NCBI GenBank assembly: GCA_965223415.1
Contig: OZ245002.1
Span: 3,584,001-3,648,000 of the forward strand
Direction: 5' to 3'
Length of the DNA stretch: 64,000 bases
Source of the DNA: Myxococcota bacterium
GTDB lineage: Bacteria; Myxococcota_A; UBA9160; UBA6930
Of the stretch, positions 39,001 through 45,000 are shown piece by piece (within the stretch, counting starts at the first letter, position 1; each line of letters opens with the position of its first letter). The position numbers are program-made.

Positions 39001-42000
39001 TCTCCCTGGGCCTCGTCCTCGCGGGATTGGGCCTGCTCAACCTGGTGGTCTGGATGCTCTACCGCGAGGTCCGGAGGCTCCAAGACGAGAGGGAGCTCGA
39101 AGCGCGCACCCGCCGCTGAGGCGCCGTGGCCCGGGGCGGCCGCTAGCCCCGGGCCACCTGCGCCATGGCGGCGAGGGCGATCTCGATGCACTGGCCCATG
39201 TTGCGGTCGAGGTCGATCTCGGCGGGGCCGGGCCAGGGCGTGCGATCCGACACGACGCAGATGCAGCCGGCCCGCACGCCGAAGAGCCCGGCCAGGGTCA
39301 GGAGCACGCCACTTTCCATCTCGCAGTTCTGCACCCGGGCCGAGCGCAGGTCGGCAATGCGGTTCGGGTGATCGGCCGTCCAGTAGTCGCCGACGCTCAT
39401 CGAGCCCATGCCGCCGCTCTCGGTGAGCACGGCGTTGCGCATGTAGAAGGCGTCGAGGCTCCAGGTGATGCCGGCCCGGCAGCGGGCGCCGCGCTCCCGC
39501 GCCGCGGCCAGGAGCGCGCCGACGATCTCGTGGTCGGCGACCGCCGGGTACTCGGGCAGCACGTAGCTCCGGCTCGTGCCGTCGTCGCGCACGGAGCCGG
39601 TGGTCACGACCAGGTCGCCGAGCTCCAGGTCCGGCGCCAGGCCGCCGCTGTTGCCGATCCGCAGGAACGTGTGGACGCCCAGCTTCACCAGCTCTTCCAC
39701 CAGGATGGCCGTGCTCGGGGCGCCGATGCCGGTCGATGCCGCGGCCATGGGAATTTCACCCCATTTTCCGGTGACGACGCGATACTCCCGGACGTTGCAC
39801 ACCTCCGCGGCGTCCTCCCAGCCCGCGCTGATCCGGTCGATGCGGGCCGGGTCGCCGCACAGGAAGGCATGGGGCGGCACCTGGCCGGGGGTGAGACCGG
39901 TGATGGGTTGGGCGTCACTCACGATGGGGCCTCCTGCTGGGGTCGAGCGGGCGGGAGGCTGGCCGACGGGCCGGCTCGCCGCAACCCGGCGGTCCCGGGT
40001 AGGGGCCCGAAACGACACCGCAATTCGCCCGCCCGGCGCCCGGTCGAGGCGGGCCGCACTCAAGTTTTGGGGGCGAGGCCCCGACCGGGGGGCCCGAACC
40101 CGAACTTGTCACTCCCGGGGCCTCGGGCTAAGGGTGGCCCGCCCCCAACAGGACCGAACGCACTCATAGAGAGGGGAGCCCCGAGGGGTAGGGGCCGAGA
40201 GGACGCAGCCGGTGGCGAAGGCGCTGATCATCACCGAGAAGCCGAGCGTGGCCCGCGACATCGCCGAGGCCCTCGGCGGCTTCAGCGAGGAAGACGGCTA
40301 CTGGGAGAGCGACGACAAGGTGGTCACCTTCGCGGTGGGCCACCTGTTCGAGCTGCCGCCGCCCGAAGAGGTAGACGAGAAGTACAAGCGCTGGACCCTC
40401 GACGTCCTCCCGATCATCCCCGAGTCGTTCTCCCTCAAGAAGAAGAAGGGGCAGAGCGACCGCATCCGCACCATCCAGAAGCTGGTGCAGCGCGACGACG
40501 TCGACCGGGTCGTGAACGCCTGCGACGCCGGCCGCGAGGGCGAGCTGATCTTCCGCGAGGTGGTGAAGTTCCTGGGCGTCGAGAAGCCGATCGATCGGCT
40601 CTGGCTCCAGTCGATGACGGCGAACGCCATCCGCCAGGGCTTCGAGCAGCTGATCCCGGGAAGCGAGATGGAGGGCCTCGCCCAGGCCGCCGAGTGCCGG
40701 GCCTGGAGCGACTGGCTGATCGGGATGAACGCCACCCGCGCGCTCACCAAGCGCTTCGCCAGCCGCAAGGAGCGCACCGCCTGGTCCGCCGGCCGCGTGC
40801 AGACGCCGACCCTGGCGCTCCTCGTCGAGCGGGAGCTCGTCGTGCTGGCCCACGTGCCCGTCCCCTACTGGAAGGTGGAGGCGACGTTCCAACACGGCGC
40901 CGAGACCTATACGGCCACCTGGTACGACCCGGCCTTCGAGGCCGGCGACGACGACCAGAAGAAGGACGACCGGATCTTCGACGAGGCCCGGGCCCAGGCC
41001 GTCGTCGAGGCGGCGCGCGGCGGCGCCGGCACGGCCAGCGAGACGCGCAAGCCCTCGCGGGAGAGCGCGCCGCCGCTCTTCGACCTCACGAGCCTCCAGC
41101 GCGAAGGCAACCGCCGCTTCGGCTGGAGCGCGCGCCGAGCCCTCTCCGCGGCCCAGCGCTGCTACGAGGGACACAAGATCCTCACCTACCCGCGGACCGA
41201 CTCGCGCTGCCTGCCGAGCGACTACCGCGCCACCGTCGACGAGGTGCTACGGAGCTTCGCGGGCCAGAGCGAGGGCCCGGGCGCCGAGTTCTCCGAGGGG
41301 GCGGCCCGCCTCCTGCGCGACGGTCTCCAGAACGACAAGAAGATCTTCGACGACACCGGCGTGTCCGATCACTTCGCCATCATCCCCACCGGCAGCGCGC
41401 CCCGCGGCGAGCTCTCCGGCGACGACAAGCGGCTCTACGACCTGGTGGTGCGACGCTTCCTGGGCGCCTTCCACCCGCCCGCGCTGTGGGAGCGCGTCGA
41501 GCGCACCACCGTCGTGGAGGGCGAGTACTTCCGCACCCGGGCCCGCGCCCTGATGGAGCCAGGCTGGCGCGCCGTGCTGCCGCCGGCCCAGGAAGAGGGG
41601 GACAGTTCGCCGCTCTCGCCCCTGGCCCCGGGCGAGAACGATGCCAGCGGCGTGGCCGTGGCGACGAGCGAGGTGGAAGCCAGTGCCGAGGAGACCAAGC
41701 CGCCCGCCCGCATCAGCGAGGCGCGCCTCCTCTCGCTGATGGAGAACGCGGGCCGCCAGGTCGACGACGAGAACCTGGCCGCCGTGCTCCACGAGAAAGG
41801 CATCGGCACGCCTGCGACCCGCGCGGAGATCATCGAGAACCTGATCCGCAAGGGCTACGTGGTGCGCGTCGGCAAGGCGCTGCGTCCGAGCGTGAAGGGC
41901 ATCCGACTGATCGACAGCCTCAACCGGCTCTCGATCGATCGCCTGGCCTCGCCCGCCCTGACCGGCGAGCTCGAGCAGCACCTGCAGGAGGTCGAGCGCG

Positions 42001-45000
42001 GGGAGCGCACCGCCGCCCAGTTCATGGAAGAGATCGAGAGCTACGCGAAGGAGGTGGTCGAGCGGGCCAAGACCTTCGACTACGACGAGCTCTACGGAAA
42101 CGACGAGCCGATCGGAAGCTGCCCCTACAGCGGGCGGCCGGTGGTCGAGCAGGCCTGGTTCTACACCTGCGAGAAGGACCCGGACCTGCCCCGGGACGCC
42201 AAGGCCGACGAGAGCTGCCCCCACGAGAGCTGCCCCCTCCTGCTCTGGAAGGACACCTCCGGGCGCTACCTCGACAAGGCCGCCGCCCAGGCCATCCTGA
42301 AGGATGGGCAGACCGGCATCCTCGACGGCTTCACCGCCCGCAACGGCCGCACCTACAAGGGCCACCTGGAGCTGGACCGCGAGGAAGGCAAGGTCAAGGT
42401 CGTCAGCGAGGGCTGGAACGAGGAGAGCGCCAGCGACGTCCCTGAGTACGAGGTGAACACGGAGCCCCTCGGTCGCTGCCCCTTCAACGAAGACTGCGAG
42501 ATCATCGAGACGGCGACCCACTACACGTGTCCGAAGCGGCTCAAGGACGAGGAGCTGACCGCGGCCTTCAAGGCGGCGAAGAAGGCGGCCAAGGCCGCCG
42601 GTGAGCCGGCCCCCGAGAAGCCCGAGACGCCGGACCACTGCGGCTTCGTCTTTCCGCGCACCGTGTGCAAGCGGGAGATCACCCGGGACGAGGCCCAGTA
42701 CTACCTGGCCCACGGCAAGACCGAGCTGCTGACCGATTTCACCTCGCGCTTCGGCCGGCCCTTCTCCGCCACCCTGGTGCTGAAGGAGAACGGACGCCAC
42801 GGCTTCGAGTTCCCGCCGCGCGGCAAGAAGGCCGAGGGAGCGAGCGAAGGTGAGGCCAAGACCCCTCGCCGCAAGACCACGAAGAAGAAGACGACGCGGA
42901 AGAAGACCGGGGCGAAGACCACCCGGAAGAAGGTCGCCGCCAAGGCCACGCGCAAGAAGACGGCGCGCAAGGCCACCAAGAAGGCGACCCGCAAGAAGAC
43001 CGCGCGCAAGAAGCCCGAGCCGAGCTGACCGCCTCCGGCTCCCCCCGCCCCCACCCCGCGGGGTAACCCCGGGGAATTTCTCTTGTCTTCGCAGGTGGTT
43101 CGGCGTATACATGCCACTTGCCGAGCCCGGGGTGAGAGTGGCAGGGATGCCACGCTGCCACACCGAGCTGGGGCGGACCGACCCGAATGGGTCGACCGCA
43201 GCGGTGTTAGGGGGAAAGCGCACCGGACGTTCGGTTCGAGTTGTTCGACGCAAGTCGACGTTGCAGAAGGTCGGTAGACGCGATGTCTCCGGCGGTGGCG
43301 TAAGCGCAGCACGGACGGTCCGGGCATCAGGAGGGGTCATGCAGGGAGCTTTTGCGGCTCGCCGGACGCGCGGTGTCGTCGCCGCGATTCTGCTCGTCAT
43401 GGTGTCGATGCCGTCGGCGGCGATCGATCTCTGGGACGGCAAGATCGAAATCCACGGCTTCTACGAGCAGCAGATCCGCTCGATCTGGGACGACTTCAGC
43501 GGCGCGGACGACTGGGACCTGACCCAGTGGTACCACGTGCTGAACCTCGAGATCGAAGCCGACATCGCACCCGACGGTTTCGGTCCCTTCGACCTGGTGG
43601 GCGCCTTCGCCCGCGTCGAGGCCCGCTTCGACTGCGTGTGGCGGCGGGGCTGCTGGATGTTCCCCAACGTCGACGTCTACGGCGATCGCCCCGGGCGGCT
43701 CCCCCGACGCATCCAGAGCGGTCGCGAGAGCGGCTATAGCGGCACCCAGTTCACCGGCGACGTGCGGCGGCCGGTGCCGGACAATATCCCCGGTGCGGCC
43801 TTCCGTTACCGGAACACCGTGGTCCCCGGCTCCCGGATCGCCACCAACGCGGCCGAGAACAACTACCTGAACGCGTTCTTCGGGGCGAGCGCCGGCTTCG
43901 ACGGCGTGATCGACCCCACTTTCCCCGACGCCGACAGCGACGACCCGGCACAGCTCGTCTTCGCGAACCTCGGTGAGTGCCTGTTCGCGAGCAACCGCAC
44001 CCGCGGCCCCGTCGACGGCTTCGGCAACCGTACCCTCATCCACAACATCAAGTGCGAGATCGAGCCGATCAACGACGTGCGGGGCGTGCCGAACCCTTTC
44101 CGCTCCCGCGACTTCAACGAGCGCGTGCTCGGCGGCGCCGGCGGCGGCTCGGCGCTGCCGTTCCGGCCCGCACCCGAGGCCCGCTTCGACGCGGGCGCGC
44201 CGGACCACGTGCCCCACGGCCTCTGGTATCCGAACGAGCGGCTCCAGCAGGCTCTGAAGGACGGCGACTTCGACGCCTTCGACCAGAACTTCACCGTGAA
44301 CGAGCTGCAGTGGAACCGCGGTGCCTCCCAGCAGGACGAGAAGGAGCTGAAGGAGGCCTACCTCGAGCTCGAGATGTTCGACAGCCGGCTGTGGATGAGG
44401 ATCGGCAAGCAGAACATCATCTGGGGCAAGACCGAGCTCTTCAGCACCACCGACCAGCTGAATCCGCGGGACCTGGCCCTCGCCTCCCTGCCCACCCTCG
44501 AGGAGAGCCGCATCGCCCAGTGGGCGTTCCGCGCGGTCTACTCCTTCTACGAAGTGGGCCCCTTCGAGGACGTGCGCGCCGAGGTGGCGCTGATCTTCGA
44601 CCAGTTCGAGCCCAATGACATCGGGCGCTGCGGCGAGCCCTACTCGCCTCTCGTCGCCTGCGGAAAAACCTTCGGCCTGCTGAACCACGGCCAGAACGCC
44701 ATTGGCCTGGCCGGCGAGATCCGCCCGCCGAACCCGTGGAACAGCTGGAAGGGCATCGACATCGGCGGACGCATCGAGTGGCGCTACGACCGCTTCTCCT
44801 TCGCGCTGACCGACTTCTACGGCTACAGCGACCTGGCCTACGCCGATTTGCTGTTCACCTACAGCCGGAACGTCGATCCGAAGAGCGGTCGTCCGCGCCA
44901 CACGAACACCACCGGCAGCTGCCGGACAGGCAGCGAGGACGCGTGTCTCACCACTGACAACGTGCTGCTTCGCCACAGCGCCAACCAGACGGCCTTTGCC

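What a model noticed while it worked through the whole genome (the two positions that open the first line are those of the whole stretch)
40212..43028. No topoisomerase I (TopA): topoisomerase III is the only type IA enzyme
topA is gone from its dprA-trmFO slot and from the closed genome; a 938-aa TopB with a Lys-rich tail (g03397) is the sole type IA topoisomerase, and there is no Topo IB. Most of the class is the same.
Evidence so far: One PF01131 match in six frames; it passes the topB model and its best Swiss-Prot hits are Bacillus Topo III. TIGR01051 finds nothing here at E<=1e-100 and finds TopA in only 5 of 30 other class genomes, where it is the only type IA enzyme; 10 of 14 controls pass. 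dprA is followed directly by trmFO. PMC2647321 (passages read, call 59): all bacterial genomes contain an omega-type Topo IA, and Topo III is an additional enzyme.
(Added by a program. Inside this text positions count along the whole contig: contig position 3,584,001 is position 1 of the stretch shown here. "Call 12" and the like, gene names such as g00115 and contig names such as C1 are that model's own, and its searches are not shown. The text may have been shortened before it was handed on; [...] marks where a part breaks off. The agent that wrote the report below was given it as the finding of a first reader that could run no searches.)

Follow-up and report, generated by a model that had tools for sequence, protein, structure and literature searches.

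The report
Long topoisomerase III replacing topoisomerase I
This bacterium lacks topoisomerase I, an enzyme that reviews say every bacterium has, and carries instead a long-tailed topoisomerase III that takes its place in several bacterial groups, including Burkholderia, where the gene is essential.

Summary
Confirmed, and wider than reported. The circular 5.83-Mb genome has one type IA topoisomerase: a 938-aa Topo III (HMMs, motifs, fold, tree) with two C-terminal PF13342 repeats and a Lys tail. In 201 class genomes, 134 carry this long TopB, 51 carry TopA, none both. Their TopA groups with E. coli's and lies away from dprA: loss, then re-acquisition. The same TopB clade occurs without TopA in 50 of 50 chosen named genomes; TopA passes in only 80 of 151 Burkholderiales and 11 of 121 Verrucomicrobiia. 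In Burkholderiales the TopB often sits in topA's slot after dprA, and a published Burkholderia cenocepacia table lists Topo III as essential and as the only type IA gene. Best reading (0.7): it substitutes for TopA, relaxing transcription-made negative supercoils; activity is inferred, and Topo VI may share the job. This contradicts three reviews; ten library searches found no report of it, though public annotations show it. Three look-ups found no earlier scan note of it.

The parts
40212..43028 (+). topB: long DNA topoisomerase III, 938 aa, the only type IA topoisomerase gene of the genome
40224..40604 (+). Toprim domain (res 5-131): E9 followed by the Topo III-specific K10; D105 with Gly107 where E. 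coli enzymes have the second Asp of DxD (shared with the Burkholderiales and Verrucomicrobia members)
40668..42029 (+). type IA core (PF01131, res 153-606): catalytic Y326 followed by Topo III-specific P327 and R328; A164/W168/M172 where Topo I has R169/R173/Y177
   Evidence: diagnostics from PMC10969213 and PMC7587558 passages
41748..41795 (+). 16-residue insert (res 513-528) at the place of the E. coli Topo III decatenation loop, absent from all 4 TopA rows shown; acidic rather than basic
42078..42839 (+). C-terminal region (res 623-876): two repeats of a Cys-containing unit plus PF13342; confidently modelled (pLDDT 90), no clear solved relative; Zn and DNA binding inferred only
42837..43025 (+). 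disordered basic tail (res 876-938; 20 Lys, 8 Arg of 63)
39143..39922 (-). nucleoside phosphorylase (PF01048), divergent upstream neighbour; part of the neighbourhood conserved across the order
43399..46686 (+). DUF1302 protein, downstream neighbour conserved across the order; no functional link shown

Best explanation
The ancestor of this class lost the native topA from between dprA and trmFO and kept a long Topo III as its housekeeping type IA enzyme. The enzyme cuts one DNA strand with Y326 like any type IA enzyme (inferred from conserved residues and fold). Its two C-terminal repeats and basic tail most likely grip the passing single strand and hold the enzyme on DNA, as the C-terminal domains and Lys repeats of Topo I do, so that it relaxes the negative supercoils made by gyrase and transcription and limits R-loops: TopA's job. 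Topo VI, in place of Topo IV, is the main decatenase and may help to relax. Shown: gene content, either/or distribution, tree placement, slot sharing. Inferred: the biochemistry and the role of the tail.
For: Either/or: long TopB 134, TopA 51, both 0 of 201 class genomes, about 34 overlaps expected if independent, though kin are not independent; 79 + 38 of 118 good genomes. 0 of 50 named genomes chosen for having this TopB pass the TopA model. Burkholderiales: 80 of 151 pass, 8 of those have a second match, one (G422) is known to hold the long TopB plus a divergent TopA-like gene. Verrucomicrobiia: 11 of 121 pass; 18 of 18 sampled non-passing matches are long Topo III. Same slot: dprA lies just upstream of the long TopB in 47 of 79 named loci (9 had under 200 bp upstream) and 6 of 9 Burkholderiales loci, and of TopA in 8 of 10. 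Reverse swap: family f5 gained a TopA 63-67% identical to E. coli's (100/100 support; AU p=0.0003 against grouping with the phylum's native TopA) and 0 of its 49 TopA genomes keep the long TopB; that TopA also ends in a Lys tail in most copies seen. Topo VI does not track TopA loss: present in 98 of 134 long-TopB and 18 of 51 TopA genomes, and alternates instead with a second GyrA/ParC-family gene. B. cenocepacia K56-2: the only COG0550 row is Topo III, essential, two genes from dprA, beside Topo IV and a Topo IB-family gene (PMC5729917 supplement rows), whereas E. coli topB mutants grow normally (PMC7140829 passage). Lys repeats confer processivity on Streptomyces TopA (PMC5714199 abstract).
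Against: No activity, expression or supercoiling data for this enzyme. E. coli Topo III relaxes normal supercoils poorly and has no known role in supercoiling control in vivo (PMC7140829 passage). The TopA-less class genomes checked nearly all carry Topo VI or a ParC-like gene (72, 74), and extra Topo IV rescues topA mutants of E. coli and B. subtilis, so a type II enzyme could do the relaxing. The core keeps Topo III cleavage-site residues and the loop insert. The C-terminal repeats show no structural match to Topo I C-terminal domains in the searches run (inconclusive). Close relatives with the same tail sit on plasmids of hosts such as Pseudomonas aeruginosa, so the tail alone does not imply TopA's job. 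The sequence of B. cenocepacia BCAL0462 was not examined; its place in this clade is inferred from name, gene order and single copy.
Confidence: 0.7

Rival explanations
1. Type II enzymes do the relaxing (Topo VI here, Topo IV elsewhere); the long TopB stays a decatenase and recombination enzyme. The either/or pattern only means that a cell needs one type IA enzyme of any sort for single-strand passage.
For: Topo VI operon present and over the cut-off; Topo VI relaxes both signs of supercoil (PMC10969213 passage); gyrase + Topo III + Topo VI is the Haloferax volcanii kit, where the review leaves open which enzyme relaxes negative supercoils (PMC11894792 passages); Topo IV overproduction rescues topA mutants. 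Of 22 chosen TopA-less, Topo VI-less class genomes, 18 have a second GyrA/ParC-family match and the other 4 are under 90% complete.
Against: Topo VI and ParC-like genes occur with TopA as with long TopB, so they do not mark TopA loss. E. coli keeps TopA beside its short TopB and Topo IV, while the long TopB excludes it. Topo III is essential in B. cenocepacia despite Topo IV.
Confidence: 0.22
2. These lineages keep their DNA less negatively supercoiled (weaker gyrase or other compensation), so a Topo I-grade relaxase is not needed.
For: Gyrase mutations compensate for topA loss in E. coli (passages).
Against: GyrA here scores 1181.6 against a gyrA cut-off of 877 (120); nothing seen points to a weak gyrase; would have to hold in several unrelated phyla. 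Gyrase activity was not tested.
Confidence: 0.06
3. Artefact: topA is lost in an assembly gap, or this protein is a divergent TopA mis-sorted by HMMs.
For: Genome is 97.3% complete by markers; most relatives are fragmented bins; topB models are passed only narrowly.
Against: Contig is circular; slot is empty in 27 of 30 class loci; four motif sets, fold search and two trees place it in Topo III with 100/100 support; 0 of 28 other family genomes have TopA.
Confidence: 0.02

Closest known systems
NCBIfam PRK08173 / PRK14724 'DNA topoisomerase III' (met by Castellaniella, Limnobacter and a Verrucomicrobiae protein); probably includes B. cenocepacia BCAL0462
   Same: Same clade (100/99), about 38-41% identity, same two PF13342 repeats, basic tail, acidic loop insert, and absence of TopA in the host
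   Different: This protein scores 847 against the 1058 cut-off: a sister branch. It does not sit after dprA. Host has Topo VI rather than Topo IV. No biochemical study of the family was found in the library.
E. coli Topo III (TopB, PDB 1D6M, 2O59)
   Same: Best solved relative by sequence (E 3e-81) and fold (E 1e-49); EK, YP and loop insert shared
   Different: 653 aa with a short basic tail, accessory to TopA and dispensable; here 938 aa, sole type IA enzyme; loop acidic; DxG instead of DxD
E. coli and actinobacterial Topo I (TopA)
   Same: Architecture: core + tandem small C-terminal domains + (actinobacteria) Lys-rich tail; single-copy housekeeping status
   Different: 26% identity; fails TIGR01051; no PF01396, no Topo I residues R169/R173/Y177; different repeat family (PF13342)
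Topoisomerase kit of Haloferax volcanii (gyrase + Topo III + Topo VI)
   Same: Identical list of enzyme classes, no Topo I and no Topo IV (PMC11894792 passages)
   Different: Here all in a bacterium; the Topo III is of the bacterial/plasmid branch with PF13342 repeats

Membership tests
Topoisomerase III (TopB) subfamily | Lys right after the first Toprim Glu | tested here: met
   E9-K10 (feature from PMC10969213)
Topoisomerase III (TopB) subfamily | Pro right after the catalytic Tyr | tested here: met
   Y326-P327-R328 (117)
Topoisomerase III (TopB) subfamily | Insert at the decatenation-loop position | tested here: met
   16 residues, absent in TopA rows; acidic, not basic
Topoisomerase III (TopB) subfamily | Curated model cut-offs TIGR01056 / PRK07726 and tree placement | tested here: met
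   524.8 > 515.75; 599.8 > 597 (4); Topo III side 100/100 (114)
Topoisomerase III (TopB) subfamily | Strong decatenation, weak relaxation | not testable with these tools
   needs enzyme assay
Bacterial topoisomerase I (TopA) | TIGR01051 cut-off 456.4 | tested here: not met
   202.7 (4)
Bacterial topoisomerase I (TopA) | R169, R173, Y177 cleavage-site residues; ES and YM motifs | tested here: not met
   A164, W168, M172; EK, YP
Bacterial topoisomerase I (TopA) | C-terminal Topo_C_ZnRpt (PF01396) or Topo_C_Rpt (PF13368) by sequence | tested here: not met
   Pfam gives only PF13342 (5); PF01396 absent from the genome search
Bacterial topoisomerase I (TopA) | Fold of the C-terminal repeats like Topo I zinc ribbons | tested here: inconclusive
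   no Foldseek match at E<=0.001, best VIA Z 4.2 (rmsd 3.3, 61 aligned) to an unrelated PAS protein
Bacterial topoisomerase I (TopA) | Works like TopA: relaxes transcription-driven supercoils, binds RNA polymerase | not testable with these tools
   inferred from distribution only
PRK08173 equivalog (long Topo III) | Score over 1058 | tested here: not met
   847.4, the best of all models
PRK08173 equivalog (long Topo III) | Two PF13342 repeats and shared clade | tested here: met
Reverse gyrase / TopB-RecQ fusion | Helicase domain in the same chain | tested here: not met
   no helicase family in Pfam scan

The most novel reading that the evidence does not exclude
Bacteria have two interchangeable solutions for the housekeeping type IA enzyme. 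A Topo III branch gained, independently of Topo I, a C-terminal module of unsolved fold plus a Lys tail that make it a processive, transcription-coupled relaxase; it has displaced TopA in several phyla (in Burkholderiales in the very same gene slot) and has been displaced by an imported TopA in turn.
Probability: 0.45. Interest if true: 0.85.

Novelty: new variant of a known kind. Interest (0 to 1): 0.7.

Why it matters
Reviews of 2009, 2020 and 2024 state that every bacterium has Topo I and that Topo III is an optional extra (PMC2647321, PMC7140829, PMC10969213; passages read). Hundreds of sampled genomes, cultured species among them, break this rule in the same way. It makes an old question directly testable: what turns a type IA core into a relaxase or a decatenase. 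Natural swaps in both directions supply the test pairs. It also means that in Burkholderia and its kin the essential type IA drug target is probably a Topo III, not Topo I.

Tried and rejected
Hidden or split topA: tblastn with E. coli TopA and four f5 TopA, phmmer with their C-terminal parts over six frames, PF01396 and PF01751 searches gave nothing. In-place swap at the dprA slot in this class: rejected, the slot is empty and topB lies 3.4 Mb away in contig coordinates. Recent mobile acquisition of topB: rejected, neighbours shared in 26 of 26 loci of the order and the tree keeps the class together; 0 of 6 loci of the other order share neighbours. Topo VI as the marker of TopA loss: rejected. 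Loss of DnaA or RNase H as a companion of TopA loss: both found (DnaA just under its cut-off). Fold search of the C-terminal region: no clear match. Expression: no RNA holder listed. Promoter scan: no sigma-70-like site, no terminator on the + strand. Ten paper searches showed no paper reporting bacteria with Topo III but no Topo I; PMC3290774 and PMC7823277 passages held nothing on it. 29 of the 79 named loci were not searched for TopA. Only 8 of the 71 non-passing Burkholderiales genomes had their match translated (all long Topo III, 55). 13 IMG/VR loci were tried for the tree and 11 gave usable proteins. No complex prediction was run.
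Full report
OBSERVATION. The ORF at 40212-43028 (+) encodes 938 aa. Pfam gives Toprim (5-131), the type IA core (153-606) and two PF13342 stretches. NCBIfam ranks four Topo III models first; topB TIGR01056 (524.8 vs 515.75) and PRK07726 (599.8 vs 597) are passed, topA TIGR01051 is failed (202.7 vs 456.4). The best solved relatives are E. coli Topo III by sequence (E 3e-81, against 4e-30 for Topo I) and by fold of an AlphaFold model of mean pLDDT 88.7 (E 1e-49). The diagnostic residues named in PMC10969213 and PMC7587558 (passages) all fall on the Topo III side: K10, P327, A164/W168/M172, and the loop insert that TopA lacks is present. An IQ-TREE tree of 49 chosen cores puts it on the Topo III side with 100/100 support (a FastTree of 139 rows agrees).

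IS TOPA REALLY ABSENT? The genome is one 5.83-Mb contig, 71% GC, 97.3% complete, and circular: one ORF runs in frame over its ends. PF01131 matches once at E<=1; tblastn with this protein, E. coli TopA, E. coli TopB and four class TopA proteins finds only this locus; PF01396 finds nothing. dprA (C1 186650-187753) is followed after 78 bp by trmFO, then a XerC-type recombinase gene and genes that look like hslV, hslU and argB by their sequence (labels recalled). In other classes of the phylum TopA passes in 107 of 122 genomes, and lies between dprA and trmFO in 4 of 13 loci fetched, next to one of them in 3 more, so the slot is real. In the class, trmFO follows dprA with no topoisomerase in 27 of 30 loci, 9 of them from genomes that do have TopA.

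THE REST OF THE KIT. One GyrA and one GyrB, so no Topo IV; no Topo IB; a top6B-top6A pair at C1 2597767-2600687. The kit is gyrase + Topo III + Topo VI, the same list as in Haloferax volcanii (PMC11894792 passages).

THE CLASS. Of 201 genomes, 187 have a type IA match, 51 have TopA (49 of 59 in family f5, 0 of 28 in f1, 0 of 32 in f12), 134 have this protein's C-terminal region, none has both and 16 have neither; among 118 good genomes the split is 79, 38, 0, 1. The long TopB of the class forms one clade (100/99) and keeps its neighbours in 26 of 26 loci of the order, though in 0 of 6 of the other order: it is old and inherited. The f5 TopA is 63-67% identical to E. coli TopA, against about 36-44% for native TopA of the phylum, groups with it at 100/100, and an AU test rejects grouping with six native TopAs (p=0.0003). 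Only one gammaproteobacterial sequence was in the tree, so the donor is placed only roughly. Six f5 genomes still have the long TopB and no TopA. The simplest history is loss of topA in the class ancestor, then import of a TopA in part of f5 with loss of the long TopB. One f2 and one f3 genome carry the same TopA; transfer or binning was not decided. Against a too simple picture: a second clade of 1.3-kaa TopB occurs on both sides; 3 of 4 scanned are RecQ fusions.

BEYOND THE CLASS. A betaproteobacterial-looking dprA-topB locus from IMG/VR brought 79 named loci. In 50 chosen from them, none passes the TopA model and each has one match; they include Limnobacter parvus, Hydrogenophaga intermedia, Roseateles chitinivorans, two Castellaniella species, Nitrosovibrio tenuis, Uliginosibacterium silvisoli, 11 Verrucomicrobia and 2 Nitrospirales bins. 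No completeness figures were given for these. Even draws asked at 95% completeness: 80 of 151 genomes of the order around Castellaniella pass and 11 of 121 of the class around a Verrucomicrobiae bin. The non-passing matches translated were long Topo III in 8 of 8 and 18 of 18 cases. Eight of the 80 TopA genomes have a second match; one holds the long TopB beside a divergent TopA-like gene on a 105-kb contig. In the window's phylum, families f19 (0 of 3) and f31 (0 of 10 over the cut-off, 3 with a mid-scoring match) also lack a typical TopA and carry the nearest branches of this TopB. In Burkholderiales both enzymes use the slot after dprA (6 of 9 TopB and 8 of 10 TopA loci; 47 of 79 named loci). 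Plasmids carry the clade too, at 38-40% identity.

GENETIC EVIDENCE IN PRINT. In the B. cenocepacia K56-2 Tn-seq table (PMC5729917, supplement rows) the only COG0550 row is DNA topoisomerase III (BCAL0462), essential, marked essential also in J2315 and B. thailandensis, two genes from dprA; the other four topoisomerase rows are ParC, ParE, a 'Topo VI subunit A' and a COG3569 gene (Topo IB family, recalled). The main text does not mention it. PMC6256756 made a rhamnose-dependent topB knockdown that was hypersusceptible to novobiocin (passages). I did not see the BCAL0462 sequence.

MECHANISM. Shown: sole type IA gene, near-strict exclusion with TopA, shared slot, swaps both ways. Inferred: the enzyme does TopA's work. 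Topo I relies on its C-terminal domains to bind the passing strand and RNA polymerase (passages), and Lys repeats make Streptomyces TopA processive (PMC5714199 abstract). This TopB has a parallel build from other parts: two Cys-containing PF13342 repeats (conserved Cys and aromatic residues; model pLDDT 90; no clear solved relative) and a disordered tail with 28 basic residues of 63. I recall, unchecked, a 1996 hybrid of the E. coli Topo III core and Topo I C-terminus that gained relaxation more than decatenation. The main rival is that Topo VI or Topo IV relaxes the DNA. Topo VI is found in 98 of 134 long-TopB and 18 of 51 TopA genomes; in a hand-picked set of 50, 29 of 30 class genomes with a second GyrA/ParC-family gene lack Topo VI and 7 of 8 with Topo VI lack the second gene. 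So there seem to be two independent either/or pairs, one for type IA and one for the type II decatenase, which favours the substitute reading but does not prove it.

NOVELTY. PMC2647321, PMC7140829 and PMC10969213 state that all bacteria have Topo I; PMC9369019 (parts 1-3 of 6 read) calls Topo III additional and does not treat PF13342 in those parts. Ten searches found no report of the exception. The library lacks most subscription journals and bioRxiv supplements were closed, so a mention may exist; reduced endosymbionts without topA are recalled, not checked. The protein family is already named in NCBIfam and the Burkholderia facts sit in public tables, so this is an overlooked variant, not a new enzyme class, and not special to this genome. 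Earlier scan notes hold no such finding.

VERDICT. Real; new variant of a known kind; interest 0.7.

Noticed in passing
G000 C1 2597767-2600687 (L284; outside the window): Complete archaeal-type Topo VI operon, both subunits with short Lys-rich N-terminal extensions; Topo VI A found in 129 of 201 class genomes and alternating with a ParC-like gene.
   Followed up: partly
L224, L229, L246 (also L230, L231, L233 by tree): TopB-RecQ fusion proteins of 1.3-1.4 kaa (Topo III core + DEAD, helicase C, RecQ Zn, HRDC) in several class and phylum genomes.
   Followed up: partly
L232:5724-11858 (G080): 2044-aa protein with a Topo III core of the fusion clade and about 1400 further residues with no Pfam match.
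   Followed up: no
G000 C1 2021189-2021845 and 2832901-2834199: dnaA is not between the rnpA-like gene and dnaN-gyrB-gyrA but 0.8 Mb away and just under its cut-off; cumulative GC skew is irregular; about 35 weak repeated AAA-type matches look like multicopy IS helper genes (not checked).
   Followed up: partly
window 35377-38862 (+): 1161-aa RHS-repeat protein inside the otherwise conserved hisS-phosphorylase-topB region; seen at this place in one other locus (L204).
   Followed up: no
L296, L297 (G545, G551): Two 0.9-Mb Verrucomicrobiia genomes keep a long TopB, without the basic tail, as their only match to the type IA model.
   Followed up: no
L149, L152: Two Nitrospirales bins have a long TopB nested among Burkholderiales sequences and placed after dprA, suggesting a transfer into the topA slot.
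   Followed up: partly
L236, L237 (G161): One f3 bin holds two long TopB copies with the same neighbours, probably mixed strains.
   Followed up: no
L258, L266: Divergent TopA-like genes (32-33% to E. coli TopA) in genomes that otherwise have only long TopB; perhaps mobile.
   Followed up: partly
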